From the NCBI RefSeq assembly GCF_037042905.1, contig NC_087251.1:43402001-43466000 (forward strand): a stretch of DNA of 64,000 nucleotides, in the 5' to 3' direction. Origin of the DNA: Lytechinus pictus. Lineage: Eukaryota. The position numbers were made by a program, and so were the translations under genes. Of this stretch, positions 477-61,510 are shown piece by piece. The notes beneath the pieces are model-generated. The model had not been told where the DNA came from, ran no database searches, and saw only the letters and a list, made by a program, of their open reading frames with translations. The number at the start of each line of letters is the position of its first letter. Position 1 is the stretch's first letter.

Positions 477-857
477 TGGTAGCAGTAATTACCAGGAGCA
501 GATTAACTCTATTGATAACCATCACTATCTTAATGAAAATAATACTGGTACCAATGTCAGATCTCGATGAAAATCAGTCGTCACATTTCTTTCACCACTC
601 CACCACAGGTTCCCGCCTAAGCAGTCAAGCCCAGCCAAGCGTTCATACAGTCATTATACCGCCGTTCATAATTACACCAGATTCTTTCCACTTGACCACG
701 GCTCAGTCAATCGTCTCTCACTAGGGAGGAAAAAACTGATATAATTTCAATACCATCATTTCCTAATTACTCTGACCCGTGTGATTAATTAGTATAAATA
801 CCCCCCGATGAATGCGGGTTTAATCGTTCATTATTATGTTGCCTTGGTGTGCATAAA

Positions 858-1097
858 CACTGCAAAAACTCCGGTGTTGATTTAACACCAGCCCGGAATC
901 TATATTTGTCCACACCAGAGAAGTATTGAAACAACACCAGTTTGGAATCAAACCGATGCTGTTTTAATACTAATTGGTGTTGTATAAACACCATCTGGTG
1001 TTAGACCAAAACGAAACTGGTGTTGTTTAACACTTCTCTGATGTGGACATATATAGATTCCGGGCTGGTGTTAAATCACACCATAGTTTTTGCAGTG
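858..1097. mobile_element. Palindromic MITE with CACTG...CAGTG termini (CMC/EnSpm-like non-autonomous element), copy 1
   Basis: Begins CACTGCAAAAACT and ends AGTTTTTGCAGTG|TA. Long internal inverted arms (TTAACACCAGCCCGGAATCTATAT / ATATAGATTCCGGGCTGGTGTTAA). Homologous copy at 56638-56884. Confidence 0.85.
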
Positions 1098-12115: not shown

Positions 12116-12568
12116 TCCCAAATGATTTATTGAACTCGCCAGTGGTCTTGGCAAATGCAGGTAAAATGTTACTATTTTTGTCACCATCATACTAATCACA
12201 ATAGGTAAAAAAAAAGTTTGGTAAAAATAACTACTGCGTTTATAATCCCAAATGATTTATTGAACTCACCAGTGGTCTTGGCAAATGTAGGTAAAATGTT
12301 ACTATTTTCGTCACCATCATAATTATCATAATTCAAATCCTAATATTCAGCCATTAATAGGTAAAAAAGATTGGAAAAAAGTACCTAACGCGTTAGTGAA
12401 TATAATCCCATATGATTCATCGAACTCAGTAGCGGCTTGGAAAATGTAGGTAAAATGTTACTATTTTTGTCACCATCATAATTATCACAATTCAAATTCC
12501 TCTTTTCAGCCATTTATAGGTAAACGGATTGGTCAAAATAACTAACTAACTCGTTAGTAAATATAATA
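12116..12568. repeat. Tandem array of three ~130-160 bp units
   Basis: Units start TCCCAAATGATTTATTGAACTC at about 12116, 12247 and 12406 and share GTAAAATGTTACTATTTTTGTCACCATCATA. Confidence 0.9.
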
Positions 12569-19337: not shown

Positions 19338-20026
19338 ATGTGAAATGTTTTTCACGCTGTTAAAATGCTCACACTTAATATTGTGAATCTAGTCTTCATA
19401 GACTTTACTATGTGAACACACTGTAATCGTCCAAATTGTGAAGGCGTCCACGGTATAAAATTATCTCTACACTGTTCAAATGCTCAGATTCAACATTGTG
19501 CATCTCATATTGAGGTCCACTACAAGTGCACACACTGTGAATATGAACACTTAAGCGTTAACAGAGTGAAATTGTCTTCACATTGTTAAGTTGGAGCATT
19601 TCAGCATTGTGAGTCACATGGTCACATTGCCCACTTTGTGAACACAGTGTGTACACTCACACTGTGGGTAAATTAATTACAAAGTGTGAACACACTGCTG
19701 AACAGTCACACTGGACGTTTCCAGAGTATGAAATTATGTTAAGAAGTTATATTTGAGCTTCTCAGACATTGTGATTCATATCTTAACACTGTGGAAACAC
19801 ACTACGAACATTTACACTGTGGATGTAAAAGTCTACAGTGTGAACAGTCGTACTGTCAAAGTTTCCAGAGTGTGAAACTATCTTCAGCTGTTATATTTGA
19901 GGTTGTGAATCACTGTGGTTCACATCTTCCCATATTCCCCTTTATGAACACACTTTAAACAGTCACACTGTGGATATGAATTTAGTCCACCGTACGAACA
20001 CACTGCGAATATTTACACTGTGGAAC
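19338..20026. repeat. Degenerate tandem array, about 5 units of 110-160 bp
   Basis: Recurrent GTGAAATTGTCTTCAC...TGTTA, CATTGTGA, TGTGAACACACT and ACACTGTGG motifs in the same order. Confidence 0.8.
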
Positions 20027-26375: not shown

Positions 26376-28879
26376 CAATTCTTTTCTTTTTTCTTTTGAA
26401 GTGTTTTAATTTTACACTTAATTTTCTTGCTATTTGCACGTTCAGCAGTATATCCATATCAAAGCTCACACAGCGCGAATACTCCTTGAGGTTTTTGCGT
26501 CAGGTACCGACCCAAAATATTTTCTAGTTCTATTAAAGGGAGTTTTAATGAGAGGAGAGAAATCAACAAATAAATTATCAGATGAATAAAAAAAGATAAT
26601 AATGGAAGAAAGAATGATCTAGATAGATAGAAAAAGAGAAGGATTTAAAGGAATAAAGAAAGAAGGAAGGAAGGAAGGAAAGAAAGAAAGAAATAAAGAA
26701 AGTAAGAAAGAGAAAAACAAATGTATGAGAATGAGTGGACGATTAAAAAAGATACAGAGAAAGGAAGAGAGGAAGAAGGGGGGGGGGGAGGGGTATATTG
26801 ATTTGATAGATATTCTCGAGCCTTTTCTAGTATTTGCATGGGTTGCCGCGTTTATTGTACGATCGCTTCACTTTCATTTTGAAAGACGGTTATGAAATAA
26901 TGCACCAATTATTGCATAAACCAATGATTACCTTTATCTATTAGAATGGGTGGTATCGCAATCAATATTACTGCAGTAATTGAATTAAAATGGCGCCAAA
27001 ACAATTACCAAAGGATACCACAAGATGACAGAGTTGACAAGTGAAATGCACACACACTCAATAATAACTGAACAATTATTTGACATGTCCGGGTAATTAG
27101 AAAAGGGAAATGTATACCGGTGTGAAATACACCGGTGAACAACTTTACAAATTCTGGTGACATTGACCTACAGTTTTGTAACACACCTTAGTTCATGACA
27201 TATTGAAGCATTCTGGAAAGCATATCGAATTTAACATCTCCCTGACTCCTTGAAATATATTATGAACATCTAAAGTTTAAACATTCTTCCATTTTTTGAA
27301 AGTAAAATAATTAATGTCTTTCTTTTATTTACACTGCATATTCACTGTCATTGTTTATATATCAAAGATTTGATTCAAGAGACCAGTCTTGGTTTTTCTG
27401 TTACATGTCTATCCTCCCAAATTTTGTTGGTATTACAGAAATATTCGAACTCGTGATACGTCATTTTGATTTATGTTGTATTTACATCACGTGACTTACA
27501 TGCTTGGATATAATCATGGCCGCACGCTTTCACTCGTTTTAACCCCAAGTCAATAAATCTTTCCGCTTGATGCCAATCTTGATAATTACCAAGTGCACAT
27601 GGATTACAAATATAGATTTCATCGCAATTTATGATTTTCCCTGCCAAATTATACAAATAGATATATTTGAAAGGAAATTCTGTTATTTAAGTAATTCTAA
27701 ATTTTAATCATATTTATGCAGTATTTCTAATCCAACCCAAATAAATAAACAGTTGTTTATAGAGGAAAAGGTAAACCAGACAAGTAGATAGGTGAAAGCT
27801 TGAACAAACAACTAGAAAGTTGTGTTTGTTGCAAAGCTGTGAAAATTTGTATATTCACTATACCCAAGAGGACTTCAATTTGGTTGCATGATCGGCGATG
27901 TCATCATGGTCATAGTGATGTTAGGCAAGGACTACTCTCCCATTTACTTCAATACATGAAATGGCTAAAATGTCATTTTTCCGAAAGTATATTTGGTAAC
28001 TTCCCTCTTGAATTTCCTAAGAACTGTGTCGAGAGTTGTAAATAGTTTTCATGGAGGTCAACAACTTACTGAACTAAACCCAATGGGGGTATAGGCTAAA
28101 TGATAAATTGTTAATGTGTGATGATATCACAAATTAATAAGAAAATGTTTCCCTATCATCTCGTATCGAATGTTTCAACCAACATGGATGCGGAACATGA
28201 ATGAGTCCCTGGAGAAATAAAAAAATTCTTCCAAAACATCTTTCCTGCGTGATTATCTAAATAATTTCCTCGTTCGTTTCCGCCGAGAGTTCTTCCCGCG
28301 CGATTTCCACTCTAATCTCGCAAGTGATGTTGTGTGATTGATTGCTGCGATTAGACTCAGGTTAGTTGGAGGCAGAAAATATGGCCGAGGAGTAATTAAA
28401 ACGATGACACCCAAGGGGGGGGGGATGATGAAGAAAATGATGATTTACCTCGGATTCTTGAGCTAGATTATCTCCGGATCGTAATATTTTAGGATGGAGG
28501 TGACCAAAAAGAAAAAAAGACCTACATGATCTAAGGGTAATTTAGAACTGATGAACGGGTCAAGTCCATGGGCATTTTATTTGAAATTAAATTGCACGTG
28601 TTGCTCCATCTCCCAGTGTGTAGTACGGTTTCGTAAAATTTAAAAGAAAAATCATGGCTTTTAAAATATGTAGAAGAACATTCAAAGGGGGGGGGGGTCA
28701 ACATGTTTTTACCCACATCCCCATTCGACTTAATTTTTTTAAAATAGGAATTCGCTAATCAATGTTTAAAGCATACATAAATCACCAAGGTCTTAAAAGG
28801 CAGCAAAAGGATAATGATCTGTAATCGACGAAATATATTGCCTTCATTGAAGAAATACCTGTGCGAAATATTACACCAT

Positions 28880-29171
28880 TCACCCATGATTTCACACAGT
28901 GGCATACACAGTAAAAAAAAATAGCACGTTGTTTAAGCATGTCACTCTAACAACAGGTTGTTTAAACTTTTTTTCTAATTGTTTTAATTTTTTAAACAAC
29001 TTGTTTAAAAAGATTAAACAGCTGTTCATCCATTATTTCACACAGTGGCATACACAGTAAAAAAAATAGCACGTTGTTTAAGCATGTCACTCTAACAATA
29101 TGTTGTTTAAACTTTTTTGTAATTGTTTTAACTTTTTAAACAACTTGTTTAAAAAGATTAAACAGCTGTTT
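28880..29171. repeat. 146-bp tandem duplication spanning a MITE insertion junction
   Basis: ATTTCACACAGTGGCATACACAGTAAAAAAA...AAACAGCTGTT occurs at 28889 and again at 29035. Confidence 0.92.
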
Positions 29172-56030: not shown

Positions 56031-56637
56031 TAGGTCCATATGACATGTCTTCAAGAGACGTCTGAGAGCGAAAAGTAATTAAGAGAAGGGAGGGATCGGG
56101 TTGATGAGGAAAGACATAGTGAGAAACTCAAATGGATAATACAAATTGAATTATACCACAGTTAAAGGAGAAAGATTCAATCGCATTTCCATCTTTTTTT
56201 TTGTATTGTGCAAATTATTGCAATCTGGTATAACTCTTAAGGCATTATCAGAAGCCAACAGAGGAAGGATATAGATTTGAATGGTTTTATAGATATCAAT
56301 GTTATATACGAAATTGGATTTGTCAATGTTGATAGTACAATTCTGCCCGGTCTCAGTTAACCACAAAGTTAGTGCTAAAATTATTATTGAAGTTGAACCC
56401 AACGGTTCCGTTATGTTAACCGATACATTTAGTAATAGTCTTTCTTTACAGGGGAGCAGAACATCGTTTGGAATAATACTGCATTATTTTCTATTTTCAA
56501 ATTGTAAGCATAATAATCAAAGCTTAGTCTTTTTCAGGACATGAACTTCTTTTAATGATTATTATTACACGATTTTGAAATTAAGAGGGTTAATAACTTT
56601 CATGAATCAAGAGGGTTTTATACATGCTAATGATGTA

Positions 56638-56884
56638 CACTGCCAAAACAACGGTGTTAATTTAACACCAGCCCGGTATCTATATCGGTCCACACCAGAG
56701 AAGCAAAGAAATAACACCAGTTTGGGATCAAACCGATTTGGGTTAATCTCTAACTGGTGTCGCTTAAATACCAAAGTGGTGTTAGCCTAACGTCAAACTG
56801 GTAATGTTTCAACACCTCTCTGGTGTGGACCGATATGTATAGATACCAGGCTGGTGTTAGATTAACACCAGCGTGTTTGCACTG
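56638..56884. mobile_element. Palindromic CACTG-terminus MITE, copy 2
   Basis: Colinear with 858-1097 (TTTAACACCAGCCCGG.ATCTATAT..GTCCACACCAGAGAAG). Confidence 0.85.
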
Positions 56885-57205: not shown

Positions 57206-57900
57206 TGTCTACCTAAGATATGAAACGATTAATATATCAGAGGAGATTTCAAATGTGAACACGTCTGCTAAACCAGTAATCACTAATTTCTAGTGCATGC
57301 CCCTTCATACTACAAACTTGTGAAGCGATATAGCGCGATTAATAAGGCCCCTCTAACTGAACAAACGTAATATGCATGTCTACCTAAGATATGAAACGAT
57401 TTTATATATCAGGGCCTATTTTAAGATGTGAACACGCCTCCTTAAACTAGCAATTAACGAGATCTACATTCTAACCGGTCCTGCCATCCAAACATAGCGA
57501 TTACAATTAATGGTAAAGCATACTTTTGACTGTGAACACACGTGAGATGTGTTTGTCTACGTAAGATATGAAACGATTCATATCTCAATGGCTACTTCCA
57601 GATGTGAACACGCCTCTTAAACTAGCAATTAACATGGACGATATGCACACTGGGCGTTGTGGCGTGCGCCTGTAATCCAAGCTATGTGGGGAAGTTACAA
57701 ATTGATGCAGAGGTTCGAGGATCGAGCCCTGGTCACGTCTTTCGGATGGTGACGTTAAAGGTCGGTCCCAGACGTAAATAATCATATATTTATGCACACT
57801 GTTCACACTATCTTGATATAAAGTGCTAACGACATTGTTAAATCATTCTGGATTTTCACCCATGAACGCATGTGGCTGTCTACCTTTAGATGTGAAGCTA
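57206..57900. repeat. Periodic array (~174 bp) with conserved ~75-bp head and divergent ~100-bp remainder, 3 units + start of a 4th
   Basis: TGTCTACCTAAGATATGAAACGATT-type heads at 57206, 57377, 57554 and 57877. Spacings are 171, 177 and 323 (=174 after removing the 149-bp SINE+TSD). Confidence 0.85.
57652..57790 (+). mobile_element. 7SL-RNA-headed SINE-like retroposon with target-site duplication
   Basis: Head GGGCGTTGTGGCGTGCGCCTGTAATCCAAGCTA resembles the 7SL/Alu 5' domain; B-box-like GGTTCGAGGATCGAGCCC; TSD TATGCACACT(G) at 57642 and 57791. Confidence 0.8.
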
Positions 57901-58159: not shown

Positions 58160-58321
58160 GGGAGCGTTTCATGAGGGGACTTGCCGGACGTTTTGTCCGA
58201 CAAGTCCAGTTTTATCCAACAGTTACGGTACCATAGTAATGGTGGTTCATAGACAGTCAAAATCAAGGGAATTTGTCAGATCTGACAAATTGTCGGACAA
58301 AAATGTTGATGAAACGCTCCC
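58160..58321. mobile_element. Harbinger-like MITE
   Basis: CAG|GGGAGCGTTTCAT ... ATGAAACGCTCCC|AAG: perfect 13-bp TIR and near-match 3-bp TSD. Confidence 0.8.
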
Positions 58322-60096
58322 AAGGATTTACTTAAAATCCCTGCAATTAAGAGTGAAATTTTCACGTATAAACGTATGATAAGATGTGCCTATAGCTGTC
58401 TAAGGTATTAATACAACATCAAGCCATATCTTGATAAGAGTGTGTTTAGACAGACAGCCATTAGTCCATTCATTGTTAAAGTTGAGATCTGCATGTATTT
58501 CTGTCTACAGGTCGCCTTGAGCATCTGATTAAGATGAAACGTGTACTTATATCACATATATCTTATGTGCAAAAATGCGAAAATGCAAAAAATATATCAA
58601 AGATAGCTTTGCCTCCTATAGACCATCTCGCCTTTTATCCGTTCATCTAAAGACCCGTTTTTGCTTGCCATTTTTTAGACTCGAACAAAAAAGGTGATCT
58701 GACATTTACTGTTACCGCATCTCAAGAATGAACCAACTCGTTCATTATACTACAAAATGCAAAAAAATACTAAAATACTACGAAATCTGTTAGAATTTCA
58801 GTAAAAATGGTATTAAATTTCAGCCTGATTCTGTTTTGGTTACCACATCCTGAATGCATTATTAATGATAAATTTACACATCTGAGATATGAAACGAGTA
58901 TATGATTAAGGGACACGAGGGTATGTGTTTGTGTGTGTGTGTGACCTTTGACATAGAGAGAATAAGGGGTAGGGTGCAAGAAATAGCTAAAAATAGAAAT
59001 ACAGAGAGAGAGAGAGAGAGAGAAGATAACAACTGAATTAGACTGAGAAACCAATTGACCTCGCACAAAACGAACAGGAAGACAATTGGGAAAACCTATT
59101 CACATAATAGATAATGAGTAAACATTACGGAGATCAAACGAAAAATCTTACGATGTTAAACCAAGCATTTTTTTGAAAGGGTTCGAACTCCAAAAGTTGA
59201 AATTAATGAACATGAAAATTAGAAGCAGCACTTAGGTATATAGCAAGGGTTATTTCCCTATTCAGCACGTTGTCGCGGTTTAATACACCAAACGCCCCAC
59301 TAGCCCGTTTTGAATAATGGCACTCTATAAGAAGACGAAGAAGAAATCTACACGGTGGAGGGTAAGGCGAGACAGAAAAATCGAAGTCTTCCTCACTTTC
59401 TCTAGTGAACCTACTTCGTTCTGAAAAAGAACACGCCTTGAATAATTCCGAGGGACTAATTACCCAGTCTCGACCTTATATATTACTGCATTGCTTCTGA
59501 GAAAACAAGAAGTTCATTCCAATACAGTGGTATGTGATAATTCTGTTCAATATCGCTTCCACTCCATTTTAATACATCACCAGTTTCTTCTACCTCAGCG
59601 TATGAATACAATCTATTTAGGATATAGACTTAAATAAACCTTTTTAAAATTTCATTGATGCTTCCTTCATAGGGCCTAATTTTGAGACAGTTTTTTTTCT
59701 GAATGATCTACCAAGATGTAAATTCCAATCTCCGCTTATTGTTGAAGTTTACATAAATAAATAAATAAACTAGTCGATATTAAACAATTCTTACGACTCA
59801 AAACTTAAAATGATATGTATTTTGTGTCATGCAAAAATAGAATTACTAACAAAATTATGCTATTAAAGGACATTTTTTTCAAGAAATAGACATAAGTACC
59901 GTAAAATTTGATACCAATCCATCAATTCAATTTATTCATCCTCATTTTAGATGACCTTCACGGTGTAACATTGCACTAGTACTGTTATCATCACCAGCGC
60001 TGCCATGTTATTTTATTCCACAATTTACGTCGATTTCCTATGCTTTGATAGTATCCGCTGGAAGATATTTCCTGCTAGTGGTGAGGCTGGCCAGTA

Positions 60097-61370: not shown

Positions 61371-61510
61371 GGGGGAAGGTTTCATGAAAGGTTTTGTCAA
61401 TGATTTTCAATGACTAACTCGCTGTCAGCCAATCAGATGCAAGGACGTACAGTAGCTTATAACATATGTCGGTGAAAATCTTTGACAAAACGTTTCATGA
61501 AACGCTCCCC
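61371..61510. mobile_element. Harbinger-like MITE
   Basis: GGGGGAAGGTTTCATGAAAGGTTTTGTCAA ... TTGACAAAACGTTTCATGAAACGCTCCCC. Confidence 0.8.

What the first reader, a model, noticed from the sequence alone, without database searches (positions are those of the whole stretch)
57642..57801. Candidate invertebrate 7SL-derived (Alu-like) SINE with chimeric 7SL + tRNA-B-box + Deu/Nin-core architecture
Seen: a 139-bp insert (57652-57790) flanked by an exact 10-11 bp direct repeat TATGCACACT(G). Removing insert+TSD (149 bp) restores the host array period (323-149=174, versus 171 and 177), so it is a true insertion. By my manual comparison from memory, its first 33 nt match the human 7SL 5' end at 27/33 and the Alu right-arm start at 30/33. 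They keep Alu-domain features: GGGCG/CGCCT stem, UGU motif and complementary loop sequences TGGC/GCTA. The sequence then leaves 7SL and shows a tRNA T-arm-like B box (GGTTCGAGGATCGAGCCC, 57712-57729). Next comes CGTCTTTCGGATGGTGACGTTAAA (57736-57759), resembling the start of the Deu/Nin SINE core (GTCTTTCGGATGAGACGTTAAA). It ends in a short AT-rich tail without poly-A. Established: well-defined 7SL-headed SINEs are known from Euarchontoglires (Alu, B1) and hagfish; as I recall, an amphioxus DeuSINE also carries 7SL-derived sequence. Inference: an independent 7SL-SINE origin in an echinoderm-like genome, formed by swapping a 7SL head onto a tRNA/Deu-type SINE.
Basis: partly seen in the sequence, partly recalled or inferred. 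Interest (0 to 1): 0.85.

Follow-up and report, generated by a model that had tools for sequence, protein, structure and literature searches.

The report
Tail-less invertebrate SINE with 7SL head
This short stretch, flanked by an exact direct repeat, begins with 47 bases that match the protein-binding front end of 7SL RNA, as human Alu does, and is likely a tail-less copy of a jumping-DNA family in a marine invertebrate (likely a sea urchin), a group for which the papers searched report no such element.

Summary
An exact 11-bp direct repeat flanks the insert. Its first 47 nt (57649-57695) hit Rfam Metazoa_SRP (E 1.6e-5). They keep 12 of 14 Alu-domain pairs, the G4-U23-G24 triad and a 5-bp loop-loop complement. 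No 7SL 3' part follows. A B box and a ~55-nt core come next, 91-100% identical to three marine metagenome contigs that carry other heads. Only the first ~38 of ~130 nt of the Deu domain are present. New here: those relatives carry a further 30-40-nt tail that this copy lacks. It stops at the loop of their predicted tail hairpin, so it is likely a dead, internally primed copy. Copy number, the host 7SL gene, an empty allele and Repbase/Dfam were not tested. This scan noted the same kind of element before, at 23 or more other places of this genome (about 1,000-1,600 copies claimed, unchecked by me). The papers searched know 7SL SINEs only from supraprimates, hagfish and shrew mole, all with both 7SL ends. 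This one keeps only the ~46-nt domain shown sufficient for Alu mobilisation.

The parts
57642..57652 (+). Left copy of the 11-bp direct repeat (target-site duplication); its last 4 bases overlap the predicted start of the head
   Evidence: chance rate 322 of 63,001 positions
57649..57695 (+). 47-nt head matching the 5' Alu domain of 7SL (SRP) RNA: closing helix, two hairpins, U-turn triad G4-U23-G24, 5-bp loop-loop complement
   Evidence: Rfam RF00017 alignment; 12 of 14 pairs canonical and hairpin pair probabilities 0.53-0.96; triad positions from PMC12265939
57653..57662 (+). A-box position of 7SL; 8 of 10 bases equal to the Rfam consensus there; promoter role inferred
   Evidence: by eye on the alignment; box defined in PMC7245038; a strict A-box pattern found no match
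57696..57731 (+). tRNA-like 3' half ending in a T-arm-like hairpin with the B box (57720-57728), in register with the B box of the related contigs
   Evidence: tRNA origin inferred from motif and position only (ARAGORN 0 genes in 3 loci; no Rfam tRNA hit)
57732..57785 (+). Conserved core; 57732-57769 resembles the 5' end of the Deu/Nin domain
   Evidence: 54-67 nt at 91-100% identity to L001-L003; 23 of 28 columns to AmnSINE1_HS by eye
57769..57790 (+). 5' arm and loop of the tail hairpin predicted in relatives; the 3' arm and the terminal short repeats are missing in this copy
57791..57801 (+). Right copy of the 11-bp direct repeat
57207..57900 (.). Host: degenerate tandem array (period 171-177 bp, ~80-nt conserved block); the insert sits in its third unit

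Best explanation
This 142-base stretch, flanked by an exact 11-base direct repeat, joins a 47-base match to the 5' Alu domain of 7SL RNA to a B box and a conserved core shared with other marine sequences, and is likely a tail-less, dead copy of a multi-copy 7SL-headed SINE that a LINE reverse transcriptase would have inserted. Origin (inferred): the 5' half of the tRNA head of an older SINE with a short Deu/Nin-type core and a stem-loop tail was replaced by the first 47 nt of 7SL RNA, by template switch or recombination. Transcription (inferred): Pol III uses a hybrid promoter, the 7SL-derived A box and the tRNA-derived B box ~67 nt downstream. Mobilisation (inferred): the head folds as the minimal Alu domain, binds SRP9/14 and docks the RNA at ribosomes; full-length copies are then recognised by the partner LINE through the 3' stem-loop tail. 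This copy (inferred): reverse transcription started inside the RNA, at the loop of the tail hairpin. That gave a 5'-complete, 3'-truncated insertion with a clean duplication and a 4-base overlap at the 5' junction.
For: Shown: exact direct repeat and restored array period. SRP model hit at the insert's 5' edge with helices, triad and loop-loop complement kept. Same core directly behind a B box but behind different heads in 3 of 3 metagenome contigs found; these have no SRP hit. All three continue 30-40 nt past the point where the window copy ends, and the break lies in or just after the loop of the hairpin predicted in L002 and L003. Literature: a 46-nt 5' Alu domain binds SRP9/14 and gives 73-86% of full Alu retrotransposition, and the 3' domain is needed only for its B box (PMC11760393). 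Tail-less insertions with duplications end in single-stranded regions (PMC5322556; PMC5402677). Earlier scan notes describe 178-195-letter copies and about 1,000-1,600 copies in this genome; these are leads, not support.
Against: No second copy in the 64-kb window. Copy number was not measured: no genome is held and laying reads gave no result. The SRP score is far below gathering (29.7 against 70). The head folds no better than shuffles (z 0.12), and its closing helix has pair probability 0.0 in the whole-element fold. The tail hairpin is not significant by energy (z -0.62, -1.65, 0.01). The target matches the relatives' tail at 8 of 13 bases at best, which 21% of 20,000 random 13-mers also reach, so priming-site homology is not shown. 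The tail is inferred from contigs of unnamed organisms, not from this host's own consensus. Four small runs of organism A hold 0-1 of 9 words. No partner LINE was found.
Confidence: 0.8

Rival explanations
1. A one-off or rare chimeric retrocopy: a LINE reverse transcriptase copied part of a tRNA-type SINE RNA and switched to 7SL RNA. There is no self-propagating 7SL-headed family.
For: Single copy in the window; missing tail; copy number not measured here; no 7SL-headed relative among the 3 metagenome contigs.
Against: Seven other samples hold 6-7 of 9 words, five of their runs guessed to be RNA. Earlier notes describe the same design at 23 or more other places, unchecked.
Confidence: 0.07
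2. Same family, but the tail was lost after insertion by an internal deletion ending at the right repeat, or the copy belongs to a short subfamily that moves without the tail.
For: Priming-site homology is not above chance; the host consensus was not seen.
Against: A deletion would have to stop exactly at the edge of an intact 11-bp repeat; the end point lies at a predicted loop.
Confidence: 0.07
3. The head is a worn tRNA 5' half or other GC-rich sequence that resembles 7SL by chance; the element is an ordinary tRNA SINE.
For: Score below gathering; folding energy not exceptional; host 7SL gene not available.
Against: E 6.9e-4 over the whole window and all 4,227 families; 29 of 33 columns equal to the SRP consensus; triad and loop-loop complement kept; no tRNA model hit.
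Confidence: 0.04
4. Human Alu contamination or mis-assembly.
For: The head is Alu-like.
Against: Alu likeness ends after 47 nt and runs straight into a core shared with marine contigs; the insert has its own duplication inside a host array; 7 other samples of organism A hold most of its words.
Confidence: 0.02

Closest known systems
SINE1-1_EBu of the hagfish (Kojima 2020, PMC7245038; parts 1-3 of 4 of the text and supplement passages read)
   Same: 7SL-derived head joined to the body of an older tRNA SINE by chimera formation; independent of Alu.
   Different: Hagfish keeps both the 5' 96 nt and the 3' end of 7SL, its own 7SL B box and an RTE tail. Here only 47 nt of the 5' end, a tRNA-type B box, a Deu/Nin-like core and, in relatives, a stem-loop tail.
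Alu, B1, Tu and the shrew-mole Urop (PMC13023118, passages; PMC7245038)
   Same: 5' Alu-domain helices, U-turn triad and loop-loop complement; A box near the 5' end and B box ~70 nt in.
   Different: All arose by a central deletion of 7SL and keep both ends (about 183 nt deleted); Alu and B1 end in poly(A) and use L1. This element has no 7SL 3' part and no poly(A).
Engineered minimal Alu domain SA46/AY46 (Moldovan et al., PMC11760393; abstract and sections 17, 18 read)
   Same: Same 46-47-nt 5' domain, shown there to bind SRP9/14 and to drive retrotransposition.
   Different: The construct needs an outside promoter because it lacks a B box; this element carries a B box from another source. Binding is untested here.
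Deu/Nin/Inv-domain SINEs, such as AmnSINE1, SINE2-3_SP, mollusc Nin-SINEs (passages and supplement passages)
   Same: First ~28-38 nt of the core, placed behind a B box.
   Different: The rest of the ~130-nt Deu domain is absent. Inv is described as the 5' part of Nin and occurs in echinoderms, but its consensus was not available for a test.
Tail-less retropseudogenes and internally primed Alu (PMC5322556, PMC5402677; passages)
   Same: 5'-complete, 3'-truncated copy with a target-site duplication, ending at a predicted single-stranded site.
   Different: Described there as products of relaxed L1 in therians and a lizard; here in an invertebrate with an unknown partner, and without significant priming-site homology.

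Membership tests
SINE (SINEBase definition, PMC3531059) | Short (<1 kb) non-tandem insert; target-site duplication as insertion mark | tested here: met
   142 nt, 11-bp exact repeat
SINE (SINEBase definition, PMC3531059) | [quoted passage not shown] | not testable with these tools
   No genome held; no reads laid; 1 copy in the window; earlier notes claim about 1,000-1,600, unchecked
SINE (SINEBase definition, PMC3531059) | At least 60% identity to tRNA, 5S or 7SL over at least 60 nt | tested here: not met
   7SL match is 47 nt long (34 of 44 consensus positions); criterion read, which allows exceptions where Pol III transcription is shown
SINE (SINEBase definition, PMC3531059) | Transcribed by Pol III from internal A and B boxes | tested here: inconclusive
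   B box match at 57720-57728; A-box position 8 of 10 by eye, strict pattern no match; transcription not observed
SINE1 (7SL-derived head) | 5' end homologous to 7SL RNA | tested here: met
   Rfam RF00017 E 1.6e-5 and 6.9e-4
SINE1 (7SL-derived head) | Alu-domain 5' fold with G4-U23-G24 triad and loop-loop pairing | tested here: met
   12 of 14 pairs, triad and 5-bp complement; sequence-level test only, energy not above shuffles
SINE1 (7SL-derived head) | Head comes from the host's own 7SL gene | not testable with these tools
   No genome held; claimed in earlier notes
Alu/B1/Tu, Urop and SINE1-1_EBu type | Both 5' and 3' ends of 7SL kept around a central deletion | tested here: not met
   Beyond 57695 the alignment to the SRP model has few identities and many non-standard pairs, and that region aligns with non-7SL relatives
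DeuSINE / Nin-SINE | Full Deu (~130 nt) or Nin central domain | tested here: not met
   Only the first ~38 nt resemble the published rows
Inv/alpha-domain SINE | 5' part of the Nin domain | tested here: inconclusive
   Position and length fit the description; the Inv consensus was not available
LINE-tailed SINE | 3' end shared with a partner LINE | not testable with these tools
   Tail absent in this copy; relatives carry a hairpin and short repeats; no LINE library on hand

The most novel reading that the evidence does not exclude
A sea-urchin-type invertebrate independently evolved an Alu-like SINE family that kept only the minimal 47-nt SRP9/14-binding domain of 7SL and borrowed its B box, core and tail from a tRNA SINE. 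It is the natural version of the minimal Alu domain defined in the laboratory. Ribosome docking through this head engages a non-L1 reverse transcriptase well enough that copies like this one insert without priming at the LINE tail.
Probability: 0.45. Interest if true: 0.85.

Novelty: new variant of a known kind. Interest (0 to 1): 0.7.

Why it matters
7SL-derived SINEs are reported from only three vertebrate lineages in the papers found (2020, 2024 and 2026 statements), and all keep both ends of 7SL. An invertebrate family with only the 5' domain would be a fourth independent origin and the first outside vertebrates. It would also separate the two jobs of the 7SL head: SRP9/14 binding and promoter. 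With tRNA-headed relatives that share the same core, it offers a direct test of whether SRP9/14 docking is what gives Alu-type elements their advantage, and whether that holds for LINEs other than L1. This copy adds evidence on how tail-less insertions arise outside mammals.

Tried and rejected
No genome is held for this window, and laying reads on the locus gave no result, so copy number, empty allele and host 7SL stay open. BLAST of the insert against the window: no second copy, best other match E 0.34. Pattern scans with no hit: viral contigs 3 of 3, genome contigs 2 of 2. Runs with under 5 words, including one labelled sea urchin metagenome, were not counted as evidence. ARAGORN found 0 tRNAs in 3 loci; Rfam on them gave 3 matches, all E 0.99 or worse. 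The mir-1268 match on the head (E 0.16) adds nothing. A protein-coding reading of the host array was rejected: all six frames of the modelled empty site are broken by stops. Pfam on 63 of the 157 listed ORFs gave one match below its cut-off, so the host was not identified. Microhomology between target and tail: not above chance; the L001 row of that script was invalid (anchor not found) and dropped. A self-cleaving ribozyme reading of the core, recalled from memory, found no Rfam support. A full-text search for the core motif listed 30 of 64 papers, none on SINEs by title. Scan look-ups near the site, among relatives and for tail loss or Repbase/Dfam returned nothing. Nishihara 2006 is not held; SINEBase supplements could not be read; file 1 of the supplements of PMC4758252 and PMC4824008 was not searched. 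These, Repbase and Dfam may bear on novelty.

Full report
What is there. The window is microsatellite-rich DNA of 30-41% GC per 2-kb bin. No coding gene was recognised: 63 of 157 stop-to-stop frames were scanned and gave one Pfam match below its cut-off. At 57642-57652 and 57791-57801 stands an exact 11-bp direct repeat. Repeats of this length, complexity and spacing occur at 322 of 63,001 positions of the window. The insert lies in the third unit of a degenerate array with anchors at 57207, 57378, 57555 and 57878. Removing the insert and one repeat turns the 323-bp spacing into 174, beside 171 and 177. Only the first ~80 nt of the units align strongly (z 11.6-15.7; remainder 1.1-3.4; fourth unit 2.7), so this is supporting, not decisive. 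The window holds no second copy.

The head. Rfam Metazoa_SRP matches 57649-57743 with 29.7 bits, E 1.6e-5 on 1.5 kb and 6.9e-4 on the whole window; gathering is 70. The real likeness covers 57649-57695, 47 nt, with 34 of 44 consensus positions equal by eye. Of the 14 pairs the model sets there, 12 are canonical. The two hairpins have pair probabilities 0.53-0.96 in the whole element, and the two loops can form 5 pairs. G4, U23 and G24, the triad that PMC12265939 names as critical for SRP9/14 binding (passages), are in place. Against: folding energy is no better than shuffles (z 0.12), and the closing helix has probability 0.0 in the whole-element fold. If the closing helix is real, the head starts at 57649 and overlaps the last 4 bases of the left repeat, a 5'-junction microhomology (inference). 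Past 57695 there is no convincing 7SL 3' part.

The body. One B-box match lies at 57720-57728. A scan of metagenome contigs with a core motif found 3 loci. They share 54-67 nt at 91-100% identity with 57719-57787. In the alignment each has a B-box-like motif at the same place before the core, behind a different head, with no SRP hit. Their tRNA origin rests on motif and position only: ARAGORN found 0 genes in 3 loci. The core's first 28 columns match the AmnSINE1_HS row of the Deu alignment in Kojima 2020 Fig. S4 at 23, by eye, and likeness fades after ~38 of ~130 nt; mollusc Nin rows show the same start. So this is the 5' sub-domain, not a Deu core. Inv is described as the 5' part of Nin and is listed for echinoderms (PMC5804259, passages); its consensus was not available.

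The missing tail. All 3 relatives continue 30-40 nt beyond the point where the window copy ends; L002 and L003 end in short repeats. In L002 and L003 the centroid structure pairs the end of the core with this tail as a two-part hairpin; in L001 only part of it forms. None is significant by energy (z -0.62, -1.65, 0.01). The window copy keeps the 5' arm (57769-57784) and stops in or just after the loop. A 5'-complete, 3'-truncated copy with an intact duplication is the pattern ascribed to internal priming at single-stranded sites (PMC5322556 and PMC5402677, passages). Homology between the target and the tail was not above chance: 8 of 13 at best in L002, 7 of 13 in L003, against 4,256 of 20,000 random 13-mers reaching 8; the L001 row was invalid and dropped. 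That the tail looks like an L2-type 3' end is my recollection, from no call.

Is it a family? Not measured here: no genome is held and laying reads gave no result. Of 24 runs listed, 14 hold half or more of the 9 sampled words, all of organism A. Leaving out the possible source sample, 10 runs from 7 samples and 4 studies hold 6-7 of 9, five guessed to be RNA; 4 small runs of the same organism hold 0-1. This shows the sequence is common to several individuals, not how many loci carry it. The scan's notes hold 23 findings with all my words and 45 of 414 fitting 'SINE 7SL Alu' in this genome. They describe copies of 178-195 letters, about 1,000-1,600 copies, a head of 45-47 bases from the host's own 7SL, and a sea-urchin host. 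I could not check these. They raised my odds on a family, and the 179-base length in one note fits 142 plus the missing tail.

Mechanism. Shown: duplication, 7SL-like head with binding features, B box, shared core, absent tail. Inferred: head swap onto an older tRNA-type SINE, the route proposed for the hagfish element; Pol III transcription from a hybrid promoter, with the A box at nt 5-14 and the B box at nt 72-80, close to the 6-15 and 76-86 given for human 7SL; SRP9/14 binding and ribosome docking; copying by a LINE; internal priming for this copy. Moldovan et al. found that a 46-nt 5' Alu domain gives 73-86% of full Alu mobility and that the 3' domain matters only for its B box. This element has that domain and takes its B box from elsewhere.

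Comparison and novelty. Kojima 2020 (parts 1-3 of 4 read), Kojima 2024 (passages) and Kosushkin et al. 2026 (passages) place 7SL SINEs in supraprimates, hagfish and shrew mole only. Six full-text searches for an invertebrate or sea-urchin case (listings and abstract starts seen, the first 25 of 104 and 20 of 29) found none. Sea-urchin SINEs tabulated in PMC3747384 and BflSINE1 are tRNA-headed (passages). Repbase, Dfam, Nishihara 2006, the SINEBase supplements and one supplementary file each of PMC4758252 and PMC4824008 could not be seen; I put the chance that the family is already catalogued with its 7SL head at about 10-15%. It works like Alu in its head, but it fails the both-ends test of the Alu/Urop/hagfish type, the full-domain test of DeuSINEs and the 60-nt overlap rule of SINEBase. 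Other papers seen as passages: PMC4758252, PMC5786205, PMC4824008, PMC5804259 supplement.

Verdict. A real insertion with a real 7SL-type head; likely a dead, tail-less copy of an invertebrate 7SL-headed SINE family that this scan has noted many times on other DNA of the same genome. New variant of a known kind; interest 0.7.

Noticed in passing
window 857-1097 and 56637-56884: Two copies (79.5% identical over 249 columns) of a ~245-bp palindromic element with terminal inverted repeats, MITE-like.
   Followed up: partly
window 58160-58321 and 61372-61510: Two short elements with 41-43-nt inverted arms that share a terminal motif, likely a second MITE-like family.
   Followed up: partly
window 57207-57900, further partial copy near 58885: Degenerate array with an ~80-nt conserved block and variable ~95-nt spacers; all three periods are multiples of 3 but no frame is open. 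Tandem Repeats Finder does not report it.
   Followed up: partly
L002 about 80-445: The tRNA-like head of the related SINE appears cut by an insertion with inverted ends, seen by eye.
   Followed up: no
L003 about 318-335: A 9-nt duplication enlarges the loop of the predicted tail hairpin while both arms are kept.
   Followed up: no
window 12116-12567, 19526-20020, 28879-29170: Further short tandem arrays with units of roughly 130-190 bp.
   Followed up: no
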